A stretch of DNA of 64,000 nt from Escherichia phage JSE. Position 1 is the stretch's first letter. Every line of letters begins with the position of its first letter. A program made the position numbers and the translations under genes. The notes beneath the pieces were generated by a model. That model saw only the letters and a list, made by a program, of their open reading frames with translations. It did not search any database and was not told where the DNA came from. Location of the stretch: the sequence record EU863408. One strand, written 5' to 3'. Shown here one piece after another: positions 376 to 48,342 of this stretch.

Positions 376-1071
376 ATGGAAAAGAACGAATTACTGATCG
401 AACAATGGGGCGTTCCTTGTGCTCGCGGTAGTTCGTCATTGCTTGAATCATTTGATGATAAGGCTACAGGAAATCTCTATATTCAAGGGATTTTCCTGCA
501 AGCCGAAACGGTAAACCGTAATAAACGCTGGTATCCTCGCAGTGTTCTAGAAAATGCGGTTACTAAATACATACATGAACAAGTTGAGACACATCAAGCT
601 CTAGGCGAACTTAATCACCCAGCAAGAGCAATGCCAGATCCATCTAATGCTTGCATCATAATTGAAAAATTGTGGTGGGAAGGTAATAACGTGATGGGTA
701 AAGCCCGTGTTATTGAAGGGGATAAAGGCGCAGGTGATAAACTTGCTGCACTGATTCGCGCTGGCTGGATTCCTGGCGTTTCCTCCCGTGGATTGGGTCG
801 GTTGAAAGACTCTGGTCGCGGATACAATATTGTACAGGAAGGTTTTGTGTTGACGGTTGGTGTTGATGTTGTTTGGGGTCCGAGCGCACCGGATGCGTGG
901 GTAACTCCTGTGGTTGAGTCAACGGATAGCGATTCTAGCGCGTCAGACGCACCAGAAAGCGATAAAACCGAAAAAGTGACTAACCCTACAGCCTCACAAC
1001 AAAACATCGTAGAATCGAATAATAGCGCGTTTATGGCGCTCGCAGAAGCGTTATCTAAACGCTATAAATAA
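376..1071 (+). CDS. 21: prohead core scaffold protein and protease gp21
   Basis: 231 aa; N-terminal LLIEQWG and QAE.VNRNKR.YP segments match my recollection of T4 gp21; synteny before 22-23. Confidence 0.9.
   Translation: MEKNELLIEQWGVPCARGSSSLLESFDDKATGNLYIQGIFLQAETVNRNKRWYPRSVLENAVTKYIHEQVETHQALGELNHPARAMPDPSNACIIIEKLWWEGNNVMGKARVIEGDKGAGDKLAALIRAGWIPGVSSRGLGRLKDSGRGYNIVQEGFVLTVGVDVVWGPSAPDAWVTPVVESTDSDSSASDAPESDKTEKVTNPTASQQNIVESNNSAFMALAEALSKRYK
1063..1070 (+). promoter_or_regulatory. T4-type late promoter TATAAATA upstream of gene 22
   Basis: Exact TATAAATA about 33 nt before the gene 22 ATG. Confidence 0.5.
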
Positions 1072-23548: not shown

Positions 23549-23580
23549 GTTTGATTCTCCTTTCGTTTCGGTATGTGTGT

Positions 23581-23609
23581 ATTATAGGGGATCGATGATC
23601 CCCTGTCAA
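23581..23609 (-). promoter_or_regulatory. early promoter with stem-loop spacer (PeSL-like)
   Basis: TTGACA, palindromic spacer GGGGATCATCGATCCCC, TATAAT, then AAGGAG site. Confidence 0.6.
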
Positions 23610-23617
23610 CAACTTTT

Positions 23618-24136
23618 TTAGTTATTTTTTAATTGCTCATCTTGCAATAGGGCAATCACATGCTGGCGATGTTCTTCCGATTGAGGCACACCGAAAAAGT
23701 TTGTTTTGTAGAAATACTCTAATCGGTCTTCTCGTGTGCTCTCTTCCATCATGATCGCGGGTAGTCCGAGATTTCGGAAACGTCGCTTTTCTGCTGGCGT
23801 AAAATCACTGTAATACAACATAGAATCATCATTACCAGCAATGCTAAACTCATCCTTCATAAAGGAGAATATTGCGTTTAAACGCTGTTTACCGTCCACG
23901 ATTTCGATCTCATAGCGAGAGCCATCATCAATCTTAGCCATTGCGATAGCACCAACCGGAAAATCATTAATCAGGTTTTCGATAAACATACGTTTGTTTT
24001 CTGTGTCCCATACTAAAGGACGCTGATAATCTGGGTTCATGTTGATATAGCCATCTTCTAACCATGCATCATAAACAGAGATGACAAAGTTTTTAGTATT
24101 GGTATAGTAACGGCGTTTAGGCGTTAAACGGTTCAT
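23618..24136 (-). CDS. DUF262 / ParB-like nuclease-fold domain protein
   Basis: DYQRPLVW and IVDGKQRLNAI motifs typical of DUF262; start placed at ATG 24136 with AGGAG site. Confidence 0.5.
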   Translation of the reverse strand: MNRLTPKRRYYTNTKNFVISVYDAWLEDGYINMNPDYQRPLVWDTENKRMFIENLINDFPVGAIAMAKIDDGSRYEIEIVDGKQRLNAIFSFMKDEFSIAGNDDSMLYYSDFTPAEKRRFRNLGLPAIMMEESTREDRLEYFYKTNFFGVPQSEEHRQHVIALLQDEQLKNN

Positions 24137-25183: not shown

Positions 25184-25431
25184 GCTGCCCCCATTGGTTT
25201 GATAGTAACAGAATCTAAAAGACCTTTGTTAGCCAGTTCGCGGCAAGTTTTCAGATCCGCAACTTCCCAGCCAGCCGCAATCAGGTTATCAATGAGGCTG
25301 TTAGCAACTTCTTCGCTCATGAAAGAGCACTGTTTGCCGATGGTGTAGCGTACACGCTGTAATTTCAGTTTACGGAAGCCTTTAACGTTCAGGTCTTTAG
25401 CGATTTTCTTTGCGGTTTCGATGTTAGCCAT
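25180..25431 (-). CDS. hypothetical protein, first gene of a four-gene operon
   Basis: 83 aa; overlaps the next start; promoter cassette at 25472-25500. Confidence 0.5.
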   Translation of the reverse strand: MANIETAKKIAKDLNVKGFRKLKLQRVRYTIGKQCSFMSEEVANSLIDNLIAAGWEVADLKTCRELANKGLLDSVTIKPMGAA

Positions 25432-25471
25432 TGTTTGATTCTCCTAAGTGGTATCTCGTCTTGATGGTTGT

Positions 25472-25500
25472 ATTGTAGGGGAGTTATCCTCCCCTGTCAA
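25472..25500 (-). promoter_or_regulatory. early promoter with stem-loop spacer (PeSL-like)
   Basis: TTGACA, spacer GGGGAGGATAACTCCCC, TACAAT; drives the four-gene operon 25431 to 23618. Confidence 0.55.
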
Positions 25501-25514
25501 CACTTTTTATAAAA

Positions 25515-25682
25515 TTATTTGTTAATTTCTGGTGCGTTGCTAGGATAGTAACCTTCTTTAACTCCGAGATATTTCGCAACCATCCCTACAATCTTCTGTG
25601 CTACTACAATGTCAAATTTCAGATAATCTTCGCCGTGGGTTTCAATGATATATGCTTCACATGCTGCTTTAGTCTCGAACAT
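25515..25682 (-). CDS. hypothetical small protein (55 aa), copy A of a duplicated gene
   Basis: About 85 percent nucleotide identity to 28994..29161 by eye; own promoter cassette. Confidence 0.45.
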   Translation of the reverse strand: MFETKAACEAYIIETHGEDYLKFDIVVAQKIVGMVAKYLGVKEGYYPSNAPEINK

Positions 25683-25715
25683 TTTGATTCTCCTATTTCG
25701 TTTCGGTATGTGTGT

Positions 25716-25744
25716 ATTATAGGGGATCGGTGATCCCCTGTCAA
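25716..25744 (-). promoter_or_regulatory. early promoter with stem-loop spacer (PeSL-like)
   Basis: TTGACA, GGGGATCACCGATCCCC, TATAAT. Confidence 0.6.
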
Positions 25745-25750
25745 CAACTT

Positions 25751-26062
25751 TTAGCGACGGCGACGATGTTTTTTGCGAGTTGCCTTTTTGTATGCTTTAT
25801 ATGCCTTTTTACCGTTTTTATATGCTTTTTTGGTATATGATTGATTTTTCTTATTGTTTTTGTATGTTTCCCGGTCAGTATTAATTTCGTTACATTCCAC
25901 GAAACGGTGTCGATGTTCTTGTGGTATGATCAAACATTTATCATAATTAACCATTTCGTTTTTCGTTGTTTGTGGTTTCTTTGGTGTGTTGTTTGCACTA
26001 ACAGACCCAGCAAAGAGAATGAGTATAGCGGTCATTAACGCAAACATTGTTTTCTTAATCAT
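25751..26062 (-). CDS. secreted small basic protein
   Basis: N-terminal signal peptide; lysine/arginine-rich C-terminus. Confidence 0.5.
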   Translation of the reverse strand: MIKKTMFALMTAILILFAGSVSANNTPKKPQTTKNEMVNYDKCLIIPQEHRHRFVECNEINTDRETYKNNKKNQSYTKKAYKNGKKAYKAYKKATRKKHRRRR

Positions 26063-27227: not shown

Positions 27228-27515
27228 TTAAAACAGTCCTTCCTGTACACCGTAGTAGAGTTCATCGCTGATAATTTCATTAATGCGACGGTGTGCATAT
27301 TCCTGATTTGCGAAGTTGTCAGCAAGTTCTACTTTAGTTTCGCCATCATGAGTCCATTTAGTGATAACTTTACCATCGGCAAATTTGAAGTTGAACTCTT
27401 TAGCTACCGCATCGCGTACCAGACGTGCAAACTTATTGTTGCGGATTGCATTGTCGGTTTCGTGTGCAGCGTGAGCGAATTTGTTAACTTTCAGAGTGAT
27501 AGTAATGTATGCCAT
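27228..27515 (-). CDS. hypothetical protein
   Basis: 95 aa; possible paralog of 30649..30960 (shared AKEFN segment). Confidence 0.5.
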   Translation of the reverse strand: MAYITITLKVNKFAHAAHETDNAIRNNKFARLVRDAVAKEFNFKFADGKVITKWTHDGETKVELADNFANQEYAHRRINEIISDELYYGVQEGLF

Positions 27516-27561
27516 AATTTGATTCTCCTAGTTAGAAAGTGTATCTCGTTTCGACGGGTGT

Positions 27562-27590
27562 ATTATGCTATACACCCGATCCATTGTCAA
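27562..27590 (-). promoter_or_regulatory. early promoter (TTGACA-N17-CATAAT)
   Basis: GGGTGTAT/ATACACCC palindrome around the -10. Confidence 0.5.
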
Positions 27591-27922
27591 CGCCTTTTTA
27601 TAAAATAATTTTCGATATCTTTATGATGTTTTTCTCGTGCTTGGTCTGCCTCGGCTGGCGATACGTTGGAAGCGATAATCTTCACTACTGTTGCACCTTT
27701 TTCGGTGTCCGACACCCAATGATTATGGAAACCGCTATTATTAAACACTTGATAAGAAAATGATTTAATGTTAGGGAAATTATAAGTGTAATAACGTACC
27801 CTTAATTCTGAATCTACGTATAGATAGATCACCGCACCTAGATAGACCGTCTCACTCGTTCCGTCAACTAACAGTAGAGTATTTCGCAATTCTTCTAAAT
27901 TGTCTTTTGTAAGAAAAATCAT
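27587..27922 (-). CDS. HxHW-family small protein
   Basis: YLYVDSEL ... HNHW ... IASNVSPAEAD. Confidence 0.55.
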   Translation of the reverse strand: MIFLTKDNLEELRNTLLLVDGTSETVYLGAVIYLYVDSELRVRYYTYNFPNIKSFSYQVFNNSGFHNHWVSDTEKGATVVKIIASNVSPAEADQAREKHHKDIENYFIKRR

Positions 27923-29161: not shown

Positions 29162-29195
29162 TTTTGATTCTCCTATATCTCGTTGGTATGTGTGC

Positions 29196-29224
29196 ATTAT
29201 AGGGGATCACCGATCCCCTGTCAA
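29196..29224 (-). promoter_or_regulatory. early promoter with stem-loop spacer (PeSL-like)
   Basis: TTGACA, GGGGATCGGTGATCCCC, TATAAT. Confidence 0.6.
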
Positions 29225-29229
29225 CAACT

Positions 29230-29524
29230 TTATAATGCTTTATATGCGTATTTCATAAATTTGTCTGCCACTTCATTGGCATGTTCAGATTCTACGCCTG
29301 ATTCGAGAACAATAGCTAGGTCGGTTTCGTCATTCCCGCCGTACCAATGATTTGATGTTCGATTTTTTTCAATTGGAAATTGGTCACTTTTATCTGTGCG
29401 ACAAAATACATCTAAATGCTCATCGATGTAAAAGATCCAATCTTCATAAAGAATAACGGGTATTAGCAAGATTTTTATTGCCTTCAACGAAAGGTTCGGC
29501 TACAAACAAATTAGTATGTTCCAT
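29230..29524 (-). pseudogene. HxHW-family small protein, frameshifted at an A5/T5 tract (29472-29476)
   Basis: ATG at 29524 with TATAAT and GAGG upstream reads 26 codons then stops; the family body (IFYIDEHL ... SNHW ...) continues in the +1 frame. Confidence 0.4.
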
Positions 29525-30396: not shown

Positions 30397-30576
30397 TTAC
30401 ATCACAATCACGCCAGCCGTTGAAAGTTGATGTTTCAACTGAGCATTTTCTGCTACTGTCAAATCAATGATTTCTTGTGACGCTGCAATCATATAGCCAT
30501 TGGTGATATTGTTTTGCATCAGTTCAATGGTTTCTTCGTTGTAGCGGATTTTAGCGATGATTTCGTTGAAGTTCAT
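30397..30576 (-). CDS. hypothetical small protein (59 aa)
   Basis: Promoter cassette at 30611-30640 and GGAGAATCAAAC-ATG start context; not in track. Confidence 0.4.
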   Translation of the reverse strand: MNFNEIIAKIRYNEETIELMQNNITNGYMIAASQEIIDLTVAENAQLKHQLSTAGVIVM

Positions 30577-30610
30577 GTTTGATTCTCCTAGTTCGTTTCG
30601 GTATGTGTGT

Positions 30611-30640
30611 ATTATAGGGGAGTTTAACCTCCCCTGTCAA
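30611..30640 (-). promoter_or_regulatory. early promoter with stem-loop spacer (PeSL-like)
   Basis: TTGACA, GGGGAGGTTAAACTCCCC, TATAAT. Confidence 0.55.
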
Positions 30641-30648
30641 CAACTTTT

Positions 30649-30960
30649 TTAAAGTTTTTCCATGATAACGGTCATAATTACATCTTCTGCGCGAGCGGTC
30701 AGATTATCAGCGTCAGCATGTGGGCGGTTGGTTGTTACAGAGATAACACCGTTGCGCACTGGTTTGATATTGATATCAAGATGATCCGCGAAACGTTCGC
30801 CAGTTACAGAATGAATTTTGGTGTTAAATTCTTTTGCCAGTGCCTTGCGAACTTCACGAATCAGGATAGCGTTTTTCAGTTGGTTCTCCGCGCTCATGGT
30901 CTTCTGGGTGTTCATGGTTCCGTCGAAGTCAATCATTGGCAGCGTTACGATGTATTTCAT
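30649..30960 (-). CDS. hypothetical protein
   Basis: 103 aa ORF with promoter cassette at 31006-31034. Confidence 0.5.
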   Translation of the reverse strand: MKYIVTLPMIDFDGTMNTQKTMSAENQLKNAILIREVRKALAKEFNTKIHSVTGERFADHLDINIKPVRNGVISVTTNRPHADADNLTARAEDVIMTVIMEKL

Positions 30961-31005
30961 TTTTGATTCTCCGTTTAAGAAAGTGTGTTTCGTTTTGATG
31001 TGTGT

Positions 31006-31034
31006 AGTATAGGGGATACGTGATCCCCTGTCAA
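31006..31034 (-). promoter_or_regulatory. early promoter with stem-loop spacer (PeSL-like)
   Basis: TTGACA, GGGGATCACGTATCCCC, TATACT. Confidence 0.5.
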
Positions 31035-31047
31035 CAACTTTTTTGAA

Positions 31048-31392
31048 TTATTTTTTCATGAGCTTAATGGCTTCTTCCATAGCCAGCACATTTCGATAGT
31101 TAGGGTATCGTGTTAGATCGTCATACATTCGCTTAAGGGTGGAAACTTCCTCAAACTCTGGGTTTTCTAGATACAGTTGAACAAATTGTTTCTCTACCAT
31201 CTCGGCTTTTAGCTTGTCTGCTTGTTCCTGTTCATATGATTTCGTTGGACCCAACACCAACAAAATGATAAAGGTGATCAACGGGCTAATGATCAATGAT
31301 AGGATAACATAACCGATAACGCTACGGTTTAAACGGCTTGCGTACATGCCTACCAGGAAAACAAAAAGGATATAGATAAACAGAAAGAACAT
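31048..31392 (-). CDS. small membrane protein
   Basis: Two hydrophobic helices at the N-terminus. Confidence 0.5.
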   Translation of the reverse strand: MFFLFIYILFVFLVGMYASRLNRSVIGYVILSLIISPLITFIILLVLGPTKSYEQEQADKLKAEMVEKQFVQLYLENPEFEEVSTLKRMYDDLTRYPNYRNVLAMEEAIKLMKK

Positions 31393-31399
31393 ATAATAG

Positions 31400-31873
31400 T
31401 TACTCCTTATTTTCGCGCTCGTACTTTTCGAAATAAAATTCTACTGGCTGGTCATGAATTGACAGCAAGCCAAAGCGTTTAGCCGCTCGCAATCCCATAT
31501 TGCGCTGAATATACTTCTGGAAGTTCTCGCGTATACACTTACGCCAGTATTCTAAGCCCATACAGCTTTTATAAAGATTGCATTGTACACACGCCGGATT
31601 CATGTTATCAAGTATATCATGTTCCGGTTTATGCATTCCTACGACCTTATACTTCCACGATCCATCATCATTACGGGCAATTCGTCCATTTTCATCATAG
31701 ACTACCTTTGAGCGTCGCAATACTGGTTTGATGTGGTCTGCGTGCCAGCGATCCCCTAGTTCCTCGCCACAATAGGCACAACGTCCACCATATTTCATTT
31801 TCAGGATCTGGCGTTGCTCTTTCTTTGACAATTTTTTAGGTTTAGGGGCTTTCGCCCCTTCATTATCACACAT
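31400..31873 (-). CDS. HNH endonuclease
   Basis: CAYCGEEL ... WHADHIKP ... CVQCN HNH zinc-finger motif; overlaps the ligase 3' end. Confidence 0.65.
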   Translation of the reverse strand: MCDNEGAKAPKPKKLSKKEQRQILKMKYGGRCAYCGEELGDRWHADHIKPVLRRSKVVYDENGRIARNDDGSWKYKVVGMHKPEHDILDNMNPACVQCNLYKSCMGLEYWRKCIRENFQKYIQRNMGLRAAKRFGLLSIHDQPVEFYFEKYERENKE

Positions 31874-33368
31874 CGAATACCTCTTTTACTGTATTTGCAG
31901 TGGTCTTGTCGTAGCGAATACGTTTGATGATTGGGAGAAATAAAGAGAACTCCGGTTCATCTTCTTTACGTGATTTGCTGCGGATATACCCGTTGCATGT
32001 CATCTCAATGACTTTTCCAATCAGGTTATGACGGTCAGCCCATAACATTTCTCGGTCGAGTTCATTTCGACGATCGAACGGAATTACACGTTCAGTACCA
32101 TCATCACCTTTTTCGGTTGTAGTGTCGGTTAATCCCGATCCGGTGTTAGTCATCATTCGTCCGCACGCACTACGGACAGTAAAACCGCCTACCTTATTGG
32201 GGTCTTTACTATGCGGATATACATCAACAATTTCCGCGTCGAAGTCAATCACTTCTTTAAATTTAACCTGATCTTTACTACGGCGATCTTCAAATACACC
32301 ATGTAAATTTTTAAGGATAATACCTTCTAAGCCCATGTTTACATAGCGATGATATACTTCGCGAGCTTCATCTATATTGTTAACTACAGTGTTTTCGATT
32401 ATCTGAACACGAGGATCGTTAAGTTCTTCAACAATCTGTTTTAGTTCTTCGAATCGATCTTTATATTGCTTCGTTGCTTTCTCGTTTCCGTAATACACAT
32501 CACGGTCGATAACATCCCAGACAGTGTAAACAATACATTGGGCTTCTTCTTTTGGAATAGTTCCTTTCAGTGATTTGTTGAGGATACCATTTACGGTCTG
32601 ACGATCTGCAACAACGGATTCTTTTACTGCTTCCGCTACTGGCGTTAATGGCATTTCCTCTTCTTCAAATATCCATGACAGAGTACCATCATAAACGCTT
32701 TCAACGAAGTTCTGCGCTGGTGTTTGCGAAAGGGTAGGCATATATACCAATTCCCCATCTAGAACAATTCCACGGCCTCGTAGACGCTCTAAAACAGCAA
32801 ACAAATCATCCAGCCCCTGATAGGTATTACCTGAACGGGTATAGATTGCTAATGTTTCCCCGTCAATATCAGCCATCCCACGAGCGCCATCGCTTTTAAG
32901 TTGTGCATACGCCGGATACTTGATATTAGCAATAGTCTTATCAGAACATGACGATGCAAGGTGACACGGTTGCTGGGGGATCAGTTTCTTCCATACCTTG
33001 TTTGCAGTGGTAGCTGAACAGCCGCATTCCAGATCACGATTCAGGACCATCATTGCAACTTTAGCATCATCCTCTGACAAGCAAGTCAGAGTATCGGTAA
33101 CTAGCTGTAATGCTGCATTACCAGTTACTTGACGCGTGGCAAGTTTATTTTTAAAGACCTGTAATGCACCGGATAAAGACAATACAGACGAATAACGCGA
33201 TGGTTTATCGTATTTCTTTACGCCAAACGTAACCTGTTTGCAATATGCCAGATAAAAACATTCTTTCAGTGTTTCATTGCTTGCAGATTCTTTCAGGATC
33301 TTTTCTTTCAGCGATGTTTTGTCTGTTGCTGCAAGCTGGTTAATGATATTAAGAATTGACATTTTCAC
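31866..33368 (-). CDS. 30: ATP-dependent DNA ligase gp30
   Basis: 500 aa; colinear with T4 DNA ligase, including a lysine-containing YAQLKSDGAR segment and GIILKN. Confidence 0.95.
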   Translation of the reverse strand: MKMSILNIINQLAATDKTSLKEKILKESASNETLKECFYLAYCKQVTFGVKKYDKPSRYSSVLSLSGALQVFKNKLATRQVTGNAALQLVTDTLTCLSEDDAKVAMMVLNRDLECGCSATTANKVWKKLIPQQPCHLASSCSDKTIANIKYPAYAQLKSDGARGMADIDGETLAIYTRSGNTYQGLDDLFAVLERLRGRGIVLDGELVYMPTLSQTPAQNFVESVYDGTLSWIFEEEEMPLTPVAEAVKESVVADRQTVNGILNKSLKGTIPKEEAQCIVYTVWDVIDRDVYYGNEKATKQYKDRFEELKQIVEELNDPRVQIIENTVVNNIDEAREVYHRYVNMGLEGIILKNLHGVFEDRRSKDQVKFKEVIDFDAEIVDVYPHSKDPNKVGGFTVRSACGRMMTNTGSGLTDTTTEKGDDGTERVIPFDRRNELDREMLWADRHNLIGKVIEMTCNGYIRSKSRKEDEPEFSLFLPIIKRIRYDKTTANTVKEVFDV

Positions 33369-33828
33369 CTCGTTTTGTTAAACGTTCACGAATATCATTG
33401 AGGATACTACAAAATTCCGATTCAGTCAATATAGTCTTTAACGGATCAGTTCCACCTATGCTATGACGTAATTTCTTATTTCCTGTAGCGAGTAATGCTT
33501 TACAAAATTCTGGGTTATTCCGTGCCATCGTAACAAATGCCAGATGTACCAGTCTGTAATAATGCTCACTCATTCGATGAATCGGGCGACCCTGAAAATA
33601 TAACATGTGATTCTCAATCTTTTCAGTTCTTCCGGTTCTTTTTGCTTTGCCACCGTGCATCAAAAAGATTTCTCTTTGTCTCTGAGGGTTCTTAAATCTT
33701 AGCCCCTGTAAAAATCCTTCTGTGCTGTTAATATCGCAACCAAATAGACGGAATGGTCTTTTATTGAAATTACTCAATTCACCCGATGGATAAGGTCCAC
33801 CCGCATAGATATCAATTTCAGAAGTCAT
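33349..33828 (-). CDS. NADAR (YbiA-like) domain protein
   Basis: GELSNF...STEGFLQGLRF and ALLATG..KL.H resemble the E. coli YbiA/NADAR family. Confidence 0.5.
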   Translation of the reverse strand: MTSEIDIYAGGPYPSGELSNFNKRPFRLFGCDINSTEGFLQGLRFKNPQRQREIFLMHGGKAKRTGRTEKIENHMLYFQGRPIHRMSEHYYRLVHLAFVTMARNNPEFCKALLATGNKKLRHSIGGTDPLKTILTESEFCSILNDIRERLTKRGENVNS

Positions 33829-34025: not shown

Positions 34026-34054
34026 CAAAATATAGGCGGGATTATTTCCCGCCG
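34026..34054 (-). terminator. terminator after gene 31
   Basis: GGCGGGA-AATAA-TCCCGCC hairpin. Confidence 0.5.
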
Positions 34055-37162: not shown

Positions 37163-38347
37163 TTACCAATCAATCTTATCAGCCGGAATCAGTTTCTTAT
37201 AATTCCGTAGATAGTAAGTTTTCATTGAAGCCAGAATACGGTCATAATCAAGACCATCAAATGCAATCATCAGACACATGAAAATATATGATTGTGCATC
37301 ACCATGTTTACGTGATTCGATAGTCGCATTGGATGCATATGTCTTTCTGTCTTCTCCCGCGTGTGCGTTATAAAATTCTGTTGCTGTCGTAAAGGCATTG
37401 CGAAGAATGGACCTGAATGCTTCCTCGAATAGCTCAATTCGTTCCAGTGCTTCCGGTTCGCCTTCATATGCAGCACGCAAATCATCGGTTTCGCTTTCTA
37501 CGACATAGTAGATCAGGTTATTAGGAAACATCGATGTGTTTTTAATGTTATGCACACCAATATACCATTCACTCTTCACCTTGAACATTTGACCGTCTTT
37601 AGTGCGTGCAACAATTCCTTCGATACCTTCTGCGGTCCGAACTTCATCAAGAATATTGCTAAAACGCGCTGAATCAACCTGTAACGCATTTACCAGATGA
37701 GGACGTAGGATTGCGTCAGCAAATAGCATTTGATGCGGTACGTACTCTCCTGTGACGTTATGGCGTACATTCAGAAGTGTTAGCGACGGTTCAGAATATT
37801 CTACAACAATTCGGTTGCTGGGTGCTGTATATTCAAAGTTGAAAGTATAATCAGACCCAATATCGGCGATCTTAGCGCGTAGATCCGCATACTTCTCTGA
37901 ATACAGAAGACCGTTTGCTCTCTCTGCCTGGCTTGAGTACAAGGCCGCTTTAGACTTCAACTGAACATAGCCGTTATCAATGTATGTGCTTACTAGACTA
38001 CCGTCCATTTTGTCCATGACCATTTCCACATCTTCCGGCTTAAAGCGAGCGCGATCATTCTCACCCAAATTAAAAAACTTCTCCATAGGACGAGATGCAA
38101 TGCGGACAGGTCGGTCTTTATCATCGATTTCAAACATGATCCCGCGACACTCTAACGCATCTGGTTTATTCCACATTTCCGGTTTGCTCAAGTACAGATA
38201 ACTAAAAATGCGCATACGGGTTTGCATCGCCGTAATTTCATCTTTGTAATAGAACGTATCAGATCCGTCACATAGTGCCATCAGATTTTTGAACAATGCT
38301 AAAACTTTTTTTGTTGTTTTCTTTTGTTGACATAATTTGTGTTCCAT
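37163..38347 (-). CDS. rnlA: RNA ligase 1
   Basis: Colinear with T4 Rnl1 (PDALECRGIMFE, RIASRPMEKFFNL). Confidence 0.9.
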   Translation of the reverse strand: MEHKLCQQKKTTKKVLALFKNLMALCDGSDTFYYKDEITAMQTRMRIFSYLYLSKPEMWNKPDALECRGIMFEIDDKDRPVRIASRPMEKFFNLGENDRARFKPEDVEMVMDKMDGSLVSTYIDNGYVQLKSKAALYSSQAERANGLLYSEKYADLRAKIADIGSDYTFNFEYTAPSNRIVVEYSEPSLTLLNVRHNVTGEYVPHQMLFADAILRPHLVNALQVDSARFSNILDEVRTAEGIEGIVARTKDGQMFKVKSEWYIGVHNIKNTSMFPNNLIYYVVESETDDLRAAYEGEPEALERIELFEEAFRSILRNAFTTATEFYNAHAGEDRKTYASNATIESRKHGDAQSYIFMCLMIAFDGLDYDRILASMKTYYLRNYKKLIPADKIDW

Positions 38348-38730
38348 TCTGGTTTAAATTTGGTGATCAAAACAGGTTCTTCGATATCGGCAGTGCTTAT
38401 AATATCTTTACCCGTTGGATTCTCGATGTACAACTCAAAGCATTGGCGGTAATAGAATGTTACTGTCTTACCTTCCTCTAGCGCCTTATGAATATTCTTA
38501 CTCTTGCGAGTATCCGCTGTTGGTGTTTGTCTGTTAATGCTCGTCCGGTAATAATTGATCCGCTTTCTGAGATTAACAGTCTGACCAATGTATACCAGTT
38601 CATCATCAACCACAATAGCGTAAAGAACATTTAAACGGTTTTTCTGAGGCGGTAGAATCACATCACCATCTTTACACTCTAAACATGAATATTTAACGAA
38701 TCCATAGTTTTCTATTAGCTCATTAATCAT
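38299..38730 (-). CDS. GIY-YIG nuclease domain protein
   Basis: VLYAIVVDDELVYIGQTVNLRKRINYY matches the GIY-YIG core; only 143 aa. Confidence 0.55.
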   Translation of the reverse strand: MINELIENYGFVKYSCLECKDGDVILPPQKNRLNVLYAIVVDDELVYIGQTVNLRKRINYYRTSINRQTPTADTRKSKNIHKALEEGKTVTFYYRQCFELYIENPTGKDIISTADIEEPVLITKFKPEWNTNYVNKRKQQKKF

Positions 38731-41497: not shown

Positions 41498-42145
41498 TCA
41501 CATATTCCTCATTTTACAGTTATCAAAGTGCCATCGTAGAGCATTGCCTTTATTGGTAATTTTACCGCAATGCGGACAAGGATCTGCCATTGTTGCTTCC
41601 TTTGTCCGTTGTGAAATCAGCTTTCTCATTTCCTCGCTATGTGGTATTCCTTTAGTTGGCGATGGTTTCCCAAACATAGGATTTTTACTTCCCATTCTAG
41701 CTTTTGAAATGTTTAACGCGTGCTCCTTTGTTTTTGGCTTACGCATTTTAGCTTTTGTCTCTTCTGATTTCAATACACCTTTCGAAGATTCGCTAATCTT
41801 TCTTCGCGTTTCTTCTTTCATCGGCTTGCCCTTTCTTTGTTCAGAGATAAGTACCCTAGCTTGTTCATATACCCTAGACGAAACAATATAATCTCTTTTA
41901 TTGGTCTTCGCATTTTTTGCTAAACACATCATACCAAATGCTTGTGCCATAGGTCCACCATGAATTTTGGCCAGCAGATGATGAATCACGAAATGTTCTT
42001 TTGCTGTCAACTCAATCAGGTTATCAACTTCATCACCGCCACCCATAGATCGCGGTAAAATATGATGTGTTTCCTTATATCCTTCAACGGTTCCTCTGAT
42101 CTTTGCTTTTTCTATGATTGCGTCATGTAGTTTTTGTAAGTTCAT
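41498..42145 (-). CDS. mobE: HNH homing endonuclease (MobE-like) with NUMOD3-type repeats
   Basis: HHILPRSMGGGDEVDNLIELTAKEHFVIHH HNH motif; repeated K.S.E..KG tracts; lies between nrdA and nrdB as T4 mobE. Confidence 0.65.
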   Translation of the reverse strand: MNLQKLHDAIIEKAKIRGTVEGYKETHHILPRSMGGGDEVDNLIELTAKEHFVIHHLLAKIHGGPMAQAFGMMCLAKNAKTNKRDYIVSSRVYEQARVLISEQRKGKPMKEETRRKISESSKGVLKSEETKAKMRKPKTKEHALNISKARMGSKNPMFGKPSPTKGIPHSEEMRKLISQRTKEATMADPCPHCGKITNKGNALRWHFDNCKMRNM

Positions 42146-44761: not shown

Positions 44762-45985
44762 TTATACTGCCATTTGAGCGGTGATCGCTGGATGGCTTTG
44801 ATAGTTGTGAATTTTAAAATCTTTCGGAGTCTTTGTCAATACCTCATCTAAAGATTTAAATTCCGGCAACTCAATTATTGGTTTATCAAACGGAACACGG
44901 CTTAACTGTTCCATAACTTGATCAAAATGGTTTTTGTAAATGTGGCAATCCCCACACTGATAAACCAGTTCGCCAACTTCTAATCCGCAAATCTTCGCGA
45001 TGATATGCGTTAACAGTGCATAGCTCGCTACGTTGAACGGATTCCCTAAAAAGAGATCATTCGAACGCATGAAAAATAAACAACTCAATTTGTTGTCGTT
45101 GGAAACATAAAACTGTACCATCGGATGACATACACCTAACACAGCATTATGCGTTTCCTGTACGTTCCATGAATCAATGATAATACGACGACTATATGGA
45201 TCATTCTTGATCATGTCAATAACTTTTTGTAACTGGTCTTCCCAAATCTTCGGGCGATAGACATATTCTTCATCGTCTTTAGTGCTTGATGTGTCTACGT
45301 CCATACTAACAAACATCGTGGTATCCGGTGCTATAATATCCCCACCCAGATAATCACTATCAAGCAGATAACCGAAATAACCATCATCTACCCATTCCTG
45401 GAATCCCCACAAGCAATATGCATCATTAACAAAATTAGATTGAGTCTTCCAGTGGTCTGCTACCAGAATATAATCAAACTCTTCATAACGCATACCACGC
45501 CAGATAGCACATAAACGGTCTTCTGTTTCATTGGTTGGTGTAAAGTCTTCTACCCACGGGTGCTTAAATGTATGTGTATATTTGCTCTTAACGCGCTTAA
45601 TTTTGATTTCACCGTGTGGATGAATCGGTTTTCGTCGCCATGCCATACCATACATATTACCGACATTATAACCATTGAATCGCAAGGGATTCTTTTCTTT
45701 CATATCAAGACAGTTGCCGCGCCAAATATCAAAGGCTTCCTCGTCAAACTTGCCGCGTGTAATTTCCTGTAAGCGACGGCGGTCAAGTGATCCCTCCATA
45801 AACCATAGCAATTCGCCAATTACAGAGGCTGTAGCCATCTTTTTAGTGGTCAGTAAGGGGAAACCCTTGCTTAAATCAATTCGCATTTCTGCACCGAATT
45901 TAGAGAGCGTACCTACCCCAGTTCGGTCTTCACGAGGCCAGCCATTATCAAGAACATCACGCAATAGTTTCAAATATTCTTTCAT
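44762..45985 (-). CDS. td: thymidylate synthase with roughly 120 aa internal insertion
   Basis: ThyA motifs (RTGVGT, VCHPMVQFYV, DPYSRRIII); 407 aa versus about 264-290 aa for typical ThyA/Td. Confidence 0.85.
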   Translation of the reverse strand: MKEYLKLLRDVLDNGWPREDRTGVGTLSKFGAEMRIDLSKGFPLLTTKKMATASVIGELLWFMEGSLDRRRLQEITRGKFDEEAFDIWRGNCLDMKEKNPLRFNGYNVGNMYGMAWRRKPIHPHGEIKIKRVKSKYTHTFKHPWVEDFTPTNETEDRLCAIWRGMRYEEFDYILVADHWKTQSNFVNDAYCLWGFQEWVDDGYFGYLLDSDYLGGDIIAPDTTMFVSMDVDTSSTKDDEEYVYRPKIWEDQLQKVIDMIKNDPYSRRIIIDSWNVQETHNAVLGVCHPMVQFYVSNDNKLSCLFFMRSNDLFLGNPFNVASYALLTHIIAKICGLEVGELVYQCGDCHIYKNHFDQVMEQLSRVPFDKPIIELPEFKSLDEVLTKTPKDFKIHNYQSHPAITAQMAV

Positions 45986-46916: not shown

Positions 46917-47246
46917 TCAAACCAGCTTGAGATAGTTTTCGTTAACGTTTTCTTCTGTGATCTCGGTTTTAAACTCATTACCAACATCAGGAGAAACATA
47001 ATAGCGTTCGGAATAATCACGCCACATTTTCAGTAGGCTGACACCAACATTAACACCATTTTCCCAGAAACGGAAGATAATTTTATTTGCGGTGTAGCGG
47101 TAATCGCTTTGAATCAAGCTGCCATCACCGCGACGTGATTCATAAACCGTAATACATTCACGGTTAGCGGCTTTAAGACATTCTTCAATAGTGCCGCATG
47201 AGATAATTTCGGTTGAGTCGTTTACGATTTGTTCTACAGTCCACAT
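46917..47246 (-). CDS. hypothetical protein
   Basis: 109 aa ORF with promoter cassette at 47278-47305. Confidence 0.5.
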   Translation of the reverse strand: MWTVEQIVNDSTEIISCGTIEECLKAANRECITVYESRRGDGSLIQSDYRYTANKIIFRFWENGVNVGVSLLKMWRDYSERYYVSPDVGNEFKTEITEENVNENYLKLV

Positions 47247-47277
47247 AATATAATCCTCTCTTTGTTTCGATGTGTGT

Positions 47278-47305
47278 ATTATACATTACCACATAAGCAT
47301 GTCAA
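47278..47305 (-). promoter_or_regulatory. early promoter (TTGACA-N16-TATAAT)
   Basis: Precedes ORF 46917..47246. Confidence 0.5.
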
Positions 47306-47332
47306 CACCTTTTTCATAAATTTTTAGGCAAT

Positions 47333-47360
47333 AAAAAAGCCTCCCCGAAGGAAGGCTTTA
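47333..47360 (-). terminator. terminator after gene 32
   Basis: AGCCTTCC-TTCG-GGGAGGCT hairpin then T-run on minus strand. Confidence 0.6.
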
Positions 47361-47367
47361 AAATTCA

Positions 47368-48342
47368 TTACATCCCTAACAGAGCGTCAAGATCATCCAG
47401 ATCAGAAGCGGAGGAAGTACCGCCACCCAGATCCAGCGATGCCATCAGGTCATCAGCGGAAGAATCTAACGCCGTGCTAGCTGCGTTAATACCAACTACA
47501 GTGCTAGCTGCGTTAATACCAGCATCGAATGCATTCATCTGTGCGTCAAAATCGTCAAGCTGGCTGTTAATCGCTGCCGCAGCACTGGAAGCCGCAGCAC
47601 CAGCTACCATAGAAACGCCCATAGTTTTCTTAAATTTGGTTTCCAGTTCATCGAACGGTTTAAACTGGCTAGGCGCTACAATCTCACTCAGGTCAACCAT
47701 GTTTTCCATCAGATATTTCTGATATGCTTCGTCTTCAATTTTCGGAAGCTGTGATTGCTGCATGAAACGAGAATCATCATAGTTCTGGTGTTTATCAACC
47801 TTCTTAGCTTTCAGGAGGAAGTTAGCACCGGAGAACACACAAGTTACATCTACCGGAACTTCGCCCATATCGGTATTCACGTTCACCATTGCAACGATCT
47901 TATCATAAATTTTCTGACCGAAGCGGAATTTGAATACCTTACCTTCATTTTCTGGTGCTTGAGGATCTTTCAGTACCAGAATATTTGCGTAGTAAGAGGC
48001 TTTACGCTTAATCAGTTGCCATTCGGTTTTATCGGTATTGTACAGATCTTTTTCGTTAATATATTTGCACACAGGGCAAGAATCAAAATCACCGTGGGTG
48101 CTGGAGCAGTTTTCCCAATACCATTTGCCATTAACTTTGAAGGAATGGTTTACCAGTTTCACAATCGGCAGACCGTCTTCTGTCTTAGACGGCAGGAAGC
48201 GAATCAGGGCTTCACCGTTACCTGCTGCATCAGTCTTAATCTTCCACTCTTTCGGATCTTCTTTGGAGAAACCGTTGCCACCTTTCAGTGCGGCCAGTTG
48301 AGCTTGCAGTTTGGAAGAATCTTGGCGTTTAAACATATTCAC
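47368..48342 (-). CDS. 32: single-stranded DNA-binding protein gp32
   Basis: Colinear with T4 gp32 (AVIRFLPSK, NEGKVFK.RFG.KI.DKI); Ser/Asp-rich acidic tail. Confidence 0.95.

What the first reader, a model, noticed from the sequence alone, without database searches (positions are those of the whole stretch)
31400..31873. HNH endonuclease overlapping the 3' end of DNA ligase
A 157 aa HNH protein (CxxC ... HADH ... CxxC) is inserted directly downstream of gene 30 with an 8 nt overlap. The window also has a MobE-like HNH between nrdA and nrdB (41498..42145) and a minimal GIY-YIG protein overlapping the rnlA start (38299..38730), while nrdB and td are intron-free. This is a pattern of free-standing homing endonucleases beside conserved genes.
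Basis: partly seen in the sequence, partly recalled or inferred. Interest (0 to 1): 0.4.

Follow-up and report, generated by a model that had tools for sequence, protein, structure and literature searches.

The report
Resident HNH nuclease gene beside ligase
A small HNH DNA-cutting enzyme gene really does sit just after the DNA ligase gene of this RB49-like (Krischvirus) phage, but it has been annotated since 2006, is present in every relative examined and evolves like a core gene, so it looks like a settled resident nuclease, not an actively jumping homing endonuclease.

Summary
ORF 31400..31873 on the minus strand encodes a 157-aa Cys4-zinc HNH nuclease (C32xxC35, H44-A-D46-H47, N90, C95xxC98-N99). 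Its ATG overlaps the ligase stop codon by 8 nt (ATGTGTGA).

The window is a Krischvirus, and this gene is RB49 ORF212, listed in 2006 and 2010 as a putative mobile element.

The homing reading is only partly supported:
- All 57 complete Krischvirus genomes carry the gene at this site.
- A divergent metagenomic relative (ligase 72% aa identity, HNH 70%) keeps the same ligase-HNH junction.
- dN/dS is 0.013, against 0.033 for ligase.
- It has no recognisable DNA-recognition module.
- By contrast, the window's mobE ortholog (41498..42145, 51% to T4 MobE) is in only 6 of 57 genomes and looks like a true sporadic homing gene.
- The "minimal GIY-YIG" gene is denA (endonuclease II), a core T4 gene.

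At family level the HNH does look like a mobile cassette. It is sporadic between trbC and traN in IncF plasmids, with a frameshifted copy in pOU1113, and it occurs in prophage replication/nin regions.

Best reading: a cassette acquired long ago, now fixed and kept under selection, co-expressed with ligase and probably a nickase. Its substrate is unknown. Already known; low interest.

The parts
31400..31873 (-). HNH nuclease gene (ortholog of RB49 ORF212 / RB49p212), 157 aa. Zinc ligands C32, C35, C95, C98. Catalytic D46-H47, N90, N99, K102. Conserved C-terminal helical region (W110, R111, R129, F146, F148, E149).
31866..31873 (-). 8-nt overlap ATGTGTGA between the HNH start codon and the ligase stop codon
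   Evidence: read directly; the same junction is annotated in RB49, Phi1, Makalu_002, SSG23, G2494, ECD7, Brandy, MIZ4 and kvi
31880..31885 (-). Shine-Dalgarno AAGAGG, 6 nt upstream of the HNH ATG and embedded in the last ligase codons (K-E-V-F-D-V)
   Evidence: read directly; the local RNA fold is
31866..33368 (-). gene 30, ATP-dependent DNA ligase, the upstream gene of the same transcription unit
   Evidence: Pfam DNA_ligase_A_M E=3.9e-22; RB49 annotation
33349..33828 (-). gene 30.3, upstream member of the conserved 30.3-30-HNH block
   Evidence: Pfam Phage_30_3 E=1.2e-38
31048..31392 (-). Variable downstream ORF (RB49 ORF211 homolog, membrane protein). It marks the start of the hyperplastic region and is present in only 20 of 57 Krischvirus records. 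The indel breakpoint near 31413 lies in the last HNH codons.
   Evidence: PMC2839356
31006..31034 (-). Strong sigma-70-type early promoter (TTGACA-17-TATACT) inside a repeated PeSL-like cassette. It is the first promoter downstream of the HNH. No promoter lies directly upstream of the HNH.
41498..42145 (-). mobE ortholog, a free-standing HNH homing endonuclease between nrdA and nrdB. It serves as the internal contrast: sporadic in the genus.
   Evidence: phrog_655 E=1.3e-55; NUMOD3; 51% identity to T4 MobE; present in 6 of 57 Krischvirus records
38299..38730 (-). denA (endonuclease II), a GIY-YIG-type core T4 gene, not a homing endonuclease
   Evidence: RB49 annotation; phrog_1111 E=1.7e-52

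Best explanation
The ORF encodes a catalytically intact, small, stand-alone zinc-ribbon HNH (beta-beta-alpha-metal) nuclease. It belongs to a family of 120-160-aa HNH cassettes that circulate among mobile elements: prophage replication/nin regions, siphovirus early regions, and the tra operons of conjugative plasmids. One such cassette entered the ancestor of the RB49-like phages just downstream of gene 30, at the edge of the hyperplastic region. Since then it has been inherited vertically as a resident gene. It has no promoter of its own. It is read from the gene 30.3-30 transcript, uses a Shine-Dalgarno sequence embedded in the last ligase codons, and starts 8 nt before the ligase stop, so it is probably made early together with ligase through translational coupling. 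Shown: the gene, its motifs, its fold, its fixation, its co-divergence with ligase, and its strong purifying selection. Inferred: it is a single-active-site, Mg/Mn-dependent DNA nickase or cutter whose activity benefits the phage, for example by attacking host or competitor DNA or by nicking DNA for recombination and replication. It is not an enzyme that currently homes into empty ligase-adjacent sites.
Against: No biochemical or genetic data exist for this protein or any close homolog, and PDB sequence searches found nothing below E=0.18. A homing gene that has swept to fixation and is still re-invading unsampled empty lineages could also stay intact. Seven T4 free-standing endonucleases are likewise promoter-less cassettes (PMC2988022), so the expression context does not discriminate. 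The 57 genomes are closely related (>=95% nt identity), and the deeper evidence rests on two short metagenomic contigs. The family is sporadic and sometimes decayed in plasmids, which shows selfish-element behaviour elsewhere. The beneficial function is inferred only from conservation.
Confidence: 0.6

Rival explanations
1. It is an active free-standing homing endonuclease. It cuts a site in or near gene 30 of relatives that lack it and is copied in by double-strand-break repair. On this view it has simply reached fixation in the sampled Krischvirus population.
For: It has an HNH catalytic core and lies next to a conserved gene as a promoter-less cassette, as several T4 mob/seg genes do (PMC2988022). 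It was listed as a putative mobile element in PMC1524935 and PMC2993671. Family members show precise presence/absence between trbC and traN in IncF plasmids and a decayed copy in pOU1113. An unrelated AP2-type HNH sits next to ligase in a Pseudotevenvirus, so ligase flanks do attract such genes.
Against: No empty site was found in 57 genomes, 2 IMG/VR contigs or 3 metagenomic contigs. The gene diverges at the same rate as ligase out to about 70% aa identity. dN/dS of 0.013 is lower than for ligase, although fixed homing genes are expected to decay. No NUMOD, AP2, IENR or HTH recognition module was detected, unlike the window's mobE ortholog. The next-closest T4-type ligases are only about 44-51% identical, too far for homologous repair.
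Confidence: 0.2
2. It is a DNA-metabolism accessory that works with ligase. It would be a structure- or nick-specific nuclease for recombination-dependent replication or repair, or for processing the PeSL stem-loops of the adjacent hyperplastic region, with ligase sealing the products.
For: It is translationally coupled to ligase. Homologs in other phages sit in replication and recombination modules, next to helicase, polymerase, RecT, NinG-like and Vsr-like genes. There are weak PHROG matches to endonuclease VII families. It lies at the border of the PeSL-rich hyperplastic region.
Confidence: 0.12
3. It is a packaging-associated HNH of the HK97 gp74 / GVE2 type that assists terminase cleavage.
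Against: It is not adjacent to terminase genes here or in any homolog context examined. It lies in an early operon. T4-type phages package by the gp16/gp17 headful mechanism (established knowledge). Matches to Cas9-type HNH domains are stronger.
Confidence: 0.02

Closest known systems
RB49 ORF212c / RB49p212 (NP_891783.1) and phi1p212, annotated 'HNH endonuclease'
   Same: Orthologous: 97-100% aa identity, the same position downstream of gene 30, and the same 8-nt overlap. Listed under 'putative mobile DNA elements' and 'other HNH' in PMC1524935 and PMC2993671.
   Different: Nothing material. The window carries the ...ERENKE allele that goes with the ORF211-type downstream gene.
T4 Mob-type free-standing HNH homing endonucleases (e.g. 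MobE)
   Same: HNH catalytic motif, a promoter-less cassette between genes of a conserved early operon, and a family found on many mobile elements.
   Different: Mob proteins are 200-260 aa with C-terminal DNA-binding modules (NUMOD3 in the window's own mobE ortholog) and are sporadic (6 of 57). This protein is 157 aa with no such module, is fixed (57 of 57), co-diverges with ligase, and is not detectably similar in sequence to the mobE ortholog (no other locus in the window matched the HNH in tblastn).
Cas9 / IscB-type HNH nuclease domain
   Different: It is a stand-alone protein with a Cys4 zinc ribbon, a 27-residue beta-hairpin insertion (residues 54-80) and its own C-terminal helical domain. 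It has no RuvC domain or guide-RNA machinery. Sequence identity is 14-22%.
Small HNH cassettes of prophage nin/replication regions and IncF/IncI tra operons (phrog_2118; e.g. HK225 gp55, Sasha gp76, HCM1.27c-like, the trbC-traN HNH)
   Same: The same family at 40-50% aa identity, with an alignable length of 120-140 aa and the invariant residues R21, C32, Y34, C35, D46, H47, N90, C95, C98, N99, K102, R111, F146, F148, E149.
   Different: Those copies are sporadic and sometimes decayed. The Krischvirus copy has an extra Lys-rich 18-aa N-terminus and a longer hairpin insertion, and it is fixed.

Membership tests
HNH (beta-beta-alpha-metal) nuclease superfamily | Catalytic His general base with the D/H-H...N...N/H motif | tested here: met
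   H44-A-D46-H47, N90 and N99. D46, H47, N90 and N99 are invariant in 65 homologs. Pfam PF01844 scores above its cutoff.
HNH (beta-beta-alpha-metal) nuclease superfamily | Beta-beta-alpha fold, here with a Cys4 zinc site | tested here: met
HNH (beta-beta-alpha-metal) nuclease superfamily | Metal-dependent DNA cleavage activity | not testable with these tools
   Requires purified protein.
Free-standing homing endonuclease (mob/seg type) | Sporadic presence/absence among close relatives, with empty cognate sites | tested here: not met
   Present in 57 of 57 Krischvirus genomes, 2 IMG/VR contigs and 3 metagenomic contigs, with no empty site. The mobE control is present in 6 of 57.
Free-standing homing endonuclease (mob/seg type) | Phylogeny incongruent with flanking host genes, or evidence of recent transfer | tested here: not met
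   The HNH and the ligase C-terminus show equal divergence (70% and 72% aa identity; dN 0.225 and 0.219) in L006. Within the genus, dS is similar for the HNH, ligase and gp30.3.
Free-standing homing endonuclease (mob/seg type) | Separate DNA-recognition module that gives a long target site | tested here: inconclusive
   No NUMOD, AP2, IENR or HTH domain was found in Pfam or NCBIfam. A conserved 50-aa C-terminal helical region of unknown role exists.
Free-standing homing endonuclease (mob/seg type) | Insertion between conserved genes | tested here: inconclusive
   The upstream flank (gene 30) is conserved. The downstream flank is the hyperplastic region and varies between genomes.
Free-standing homing endonuclease (mob/seg type) | Site-specific cleavage of the endonuclease-less allele and super-Mendelian inheritance | not testable with these tools
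   Needs phage crosses and cleavage assays.
Terminase-associated HNH (HK97 gp74 type) | Gene adjacent to the terminase/portal genes, next to the cos site | tested here: not met
   It lies in the early ligase operon. Homologs sit in replication/nin or tra contexts.
T4 endonuclease VII (gp49) resolvase | Endo VII fold and sequence family | tested here: not met

The most novel reading that the evidence does not exclude
The phrog_2118-type proteins could be a distinct class of minimal (120-160 aa) free-standing HNH cassettes. They would spread between operon genes of very different mobile elements (IncF and IncI tra operons, lambdoid nin regions, a T4-type early operon) without any classical DNA-recognition domain. 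The Krischvirus copy would then be a domesticated member retained as a phage weapon, or as a nick-making partner of ligase, possibly acting on the PeSL stem-loops of the adjacent hyperplastic region.
Probability: 0.15. Interest if true: 0.45.

Novelty: already known. Interest (0 to 1): 0.15.

Why it matters
On its own the finding matters little. The gene has been annotated as an HNH endonuclease and listed as a putative mobile element since the RB49 genome papers. The useful outcome is a correction: being an HNH next to a conserved gene is not enough to call a homing endonuclease. Within this one window a fixed, strongly selected HNH (57 of 57 genomes), a truly sporadic mobE ortholog (6 of 57) and a core GIY-YIG enzyme (denA) sit side by side and can be told apart by distribution and selection. 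If the resident HNH has a phage-beneficial role, it would be an example of domestication of a cassette that still behaves selfishly in conjugative plasmids.

Tried and rejected
- **Paralogs in the window.** tblastn found none. The extra blastn "places" in relatives are PeSL-like intergenic repeats, not HNH copies.
- **An HNH-less Krischvirus.** The apparent 58th ligase record is a 1.5-kb partial RB49 entry.
- **Empty sites in other collections.** IMG/VR gave 6 ligase loci, of which 2 are Krischvirus and both carry the HNH. JGI metagenomes gave 20 ligase loci. The one Krischvirus contig among them carries the HNH with three 1-nt homopolymer deletions, most likely sequencing error. The distant T4-type ligases (<=51% identity) have no such HNH.
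- **Terminase-associated HNH.** Rejected on genomic context.
- **Endonuclease VII-like resolvase.** Rejected on fold score.
- **A conserved partner gene across 80 IMG/VR loci.** None found. DNA methyltransferases are near the HNH in 3 of about 8 inspected contexts, but not consistently.
- **PDB sequence search.** Nothing below E=0.18.
- **PADLOC.** Only weak hits to generic HNH domains of the PtuB and Cas9 type.
- **Literature on the trbC-traN HNH.** Nothing relevant found.
- **RNA structure around the start.** The predicted hairpin gives z=-2.76 and is not decisive about RBS occlusion.
- **The "HNH homing endonuclease" overlapping ligase in Klebsiella phage kp20.** This is a mis-annotated ligase.

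Full report
**What is there**

The window is an RB49-like T4-type phage of the genus Krischvirus. A 2.5-kb stretch around the finding matches 58 phage records at 95-99% nt identity, best vB_EcoM_G37-3 at 99.0%.

On the minus strand, ORF 31400..31873 encodes 157 aa. The ligase gene (31866..33368, minus; Pfam DNA_ligase_A_M E=3.9e-22) ends in TGA at 31866..31868. The HNH ATG is at 31871..31873.

A strong Shine-Dalgarno sequence, AAGAGG (31880..31885), lies 6 nt upstream of the ATG, inside the last ligase codons. The quoted motifs are real: C32xxC35, H44-A-D46-H47 and C95xxC98. The protein passes the Pfam HNH cutoff (27 bits against 21.4) and matches phrog_2118 "HNH endonuclease" at E=2.7e-54.

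**It is already annotated**

The gene is the ortholog of RB49p212 / RB49 ORF212c, annotated "HNH endonuclease" in RefSeq at the same place.
- Nolan et al. 2006 list RB49ORF212c under "putative mobile DNA elements" (PMC1524935).
- Petrov et al. 2010 count one "other HNH" putative homing gene in both RB49 and phi1 (PMC2993671).

**The other genes cited in the finding**

- **41498..42145** has a NUMOD3 motif and matches phrog_655 "homing endonuclease" at E=1.3e-55. It is 51% identical to T4 MobE, which lies at the same nrdA/nrdB site. Only 6 of 57 Krischvirus records carry it. The others have three tiny ORFs or a cytosine methyltransferase there. This one is a genuine sporadic free-standing homing gene.
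- **38299..38730** is denA (endonuclease II), as annotated in RB49 (phrog_1111 E=1.7e-52). It is a GIY-YIG-type core T4 gene at its usual place next to rnlA, not a homing endonuclease.
- **nrdB and td** are uninterrupted ORFs, and Rfam finds no intron anywhere in the window.

**Distribution test for the ligase-adjacent HNH**

- Every complete Krischvirus record carries the gene at the same junction: 57 of 57 by DNA search and 57 by protein search at >=95% identity.
- The 58th ligase hit is a 1.5-kb partial RB49 entry that stops inside ligase.
- Both Krischvirus contigs in IMG/VR have it.
- The one Krischvirus contig in the JGI metagenome scan also has it. That copy has three 1-nt deletions in homopolymer runs on a 1-kb contig, which most likely are sequencing errors.
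- Two Logan contigs from a divergent relative (L006, L007) encode an HNH 70% identical that again follows ligase directly, with a 1-nt overlap. Their ligase C-terminus is 72% identical to the window's.
- In that relative the non-synonymous divergence is the same for both genes (dN 0.225 for the HNH, 0.219 for ligase), and synonymous sites are saturated.

The gene was therefore already in place in a fairly deep ancestor and has travelled with ligase ever since. No T4-type phage outside this lineage has it. The next ligases are only about 44-51% identical.

**Selection**

Across ten Krischvirus genomes the HNH has dN/dS = 0.013 at mean dS 0.154. Ligase gives 0.033 and gp30.3 gives 0.030. No disrupted copy was seen in the 57 records. 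A homing gene that has run out of empty sites is expected to decay, and this one is more constrained than its essential neighbour.

The only regular variation is at the extreme C-terminus...ERENKE* versus ...EREHQEK*. It coincides with an indel whose breakpoint lies near 31413. On the far side of that breakpoint, the downstream membrane-protein ORF (31048..31392, RB49 ORF211) is present in 20 of 57 records and absent in 37. Arbiol et al. describe ORF211 as RB49-specific and as part of the hyperplastic region shuffled through PeSL cassettes (PMC2839356). The HNH is thus the last gene of the conserved 30.3-30 block.

**What the protein looks like**

An alignment of 65 homologs shows these invariant residues:
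- the four zinc cysteines;
- D46, H47, N90, N99 and K102;
- residues of a C-terminal helical region (R111, F146, F148, E149).

The D-H...N...N..K arrangement parallels the Cas9 HNH site (that comparison is from my own knowledge). A single active site in a small monomer suggests nicking, but this is an inference. No NUMOD, AP2, IENR or HTH recognition module was detected. The Krischvirus proteins add an 18-residue Lys-rich N-terminus and a longer beta-hairpin (residues 54-80) compared with most homologs.

**Expression context**

A terminator-like hairpin follows gene 31 at 34053..34035. Between there and the HNH there is no strong sigma-70-type promoter and no T4 late TATAAATA box. The first strong promoters lie downstream at 31034..31006 and 30640..30611.

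The HNH is therefore probably read from the 30.3-30 message and translationally coupled to ligase (inference). This does not discriminate between the hypotheses, because seven T4 homing genes are also promoter-less cassettes (PMC2988022).

**The wider family**

Outside Krischvirus, identity drops to 50% or less.
- **Phages.** Homologs lie in early, replication or nin regions, not next to terminase. Examples are Sasha gp76, downstream of a methyltransferase gene; HK225 gp55, in the nin region; eiAU, downstream of the DNA polymerase gene; and fLi-Aba03, after a helicase.
- **Metagenomic and prophage contigs.** The contexts are similar.
- **IMG/VR.** It holds more than 570 relatives. Across the best 80 loci the neighbours are DnaB-like, O/P-like, NinG-like and Vsr-like genes, with no conserved partner.
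- **Plasmids.** 2,684 plasmid records, 2,435 of them conjugative, carry a member. One sits between trbC and traN of an IncF tra operon with a 4-nt overlap onto traN. Another sits between traX and a DotA/TraY gene.

Among about 3,450 F-type plasmids matching that trbC-traN region, an evenly spaced sample of 40 showed roughly a quarter with the HNH. In most of the rest the match begins at the traN start and trbC is annotated directly abutting traN, which is a precise empty site. pOU1113 carries a copy inactivated by two 1-nt deletions.

At family level, then, intact, decayed and empty states all occur, as expected for a selfish free-standing cassette.

**Synthesis**

The most economical reading is an old acquisition of such a cassette by the RB49-lineage ancestor, followed by fixation and retention under selection (confidence about 0.6). 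What the nuclease does for the phage is not shown. Plausible roles are:
- nicking or cutting host or competitor DNA;
- making nicks for recombination-dependent replication;
- acting on the neighbouring PeSL structures.

The main rival, at about 0.2, is a still-active homing endonuclease whose empty sites are unsampled. A ligase-linked repair or recombination role is possible (about 0.12). A packaging role is very unlikely.

**Verdict**

The gene is already known and of low interest. The mobE ortholog in the same window is the real example of the proposed pattern.

Noticed in passing
window 44762..45985 (-): The thymidylate synthase ORF is 407 aa. A translated in-frame insertion of about 130 aa (residues ~118-248) lies between the YGxxWR and DQL...SRR motifs. 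RB49 td is likewise 410 aa. The insert has no Pfam match and is not an intron.
   Followed up: partly
window 47247..47367 versus RB49 locus L001 32240..33697: RB49 carries a 1458-nt gene annotated 'endonuclease' (RB49p240) between the RB49p239 homolog and gene 32. The window goes straight from 46917..47246 to gene 32 (47368..48342). This is another presence/absence polymorphism of a nuclease gene.
   Followed up: partly
window 41498..42145 (-): The mobE ortholog (51% aa identity to T4 MobE, same nrdA/nrdB site) is present in only 6 of 57 Krischvirus records. Genomes lacking it carry three tiny ORFs or a DNA-cytosine methyltransferase at that site. nt identity over this region is higher in the 6 genomes that carry mobE (96.5-98%) than in those that lack it (about 93-98%, mostly 95-96%).
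   Followed up: yes
L020 5577..6188 (ECD7) and L019 5927..6538 (G2494): A further sporadic 612-nt HNH homing endonuclease gene lies between gene 31 and 31.1 in some Krischvirus genomes. It is absent from the window, RB49, Phi1 and others.
   Followed up: partly
window 30944..31061, similar to 23561..23633, 25696..25752, 30561..30665, 29180..29231, 27505..27612 and 25415..25526: A family of repeated intergenic cassettes containing consensus early promoters. They match the promoter-early stem-loops (PeSL) that Arbiol et al. 2010 implicated in modular shuffling of the hyperplastic region.
   Followed up: partly
window 31048..31392 (-): The membrane-protein ORF (RB49 ORF211 homolog, reported as similar to a Vibrio superintegron ORF) is present in 20 of 57 Krischvirus records. 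Its indel breakpoint near 31413 falls in the last codons of the HNH gene and creates two HNH C-terminal alleles.
   Followed up: yes
L106 3986..4405; L108 601..1000: The same HNH family sits between trbC and traN in a minority of IncF conjugative plasmids. Most F-type plasmids have a precise empty site there, and Salmonella Dublin pOU1113 has a frameshifted copy.
   Followed up: partly
L115 (MAVA01000210.1) 435..875: A 1-kb metagenomic Krischvirus contig has three 1-nt deletions in homopolymer runs within 75 nt of the HNH gene. This is probably sequencing error, but a decaying copy cannot be excluded.
   Followed up: partly
L105 2142..3392 (Klebsiella phage vB_KleM_kp20): The DNA ligase gene of this Slopekvirus record is annotated 'putative HNH homing endonuclease', an apparent mis-annotation in the public record.
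   Followed up: no
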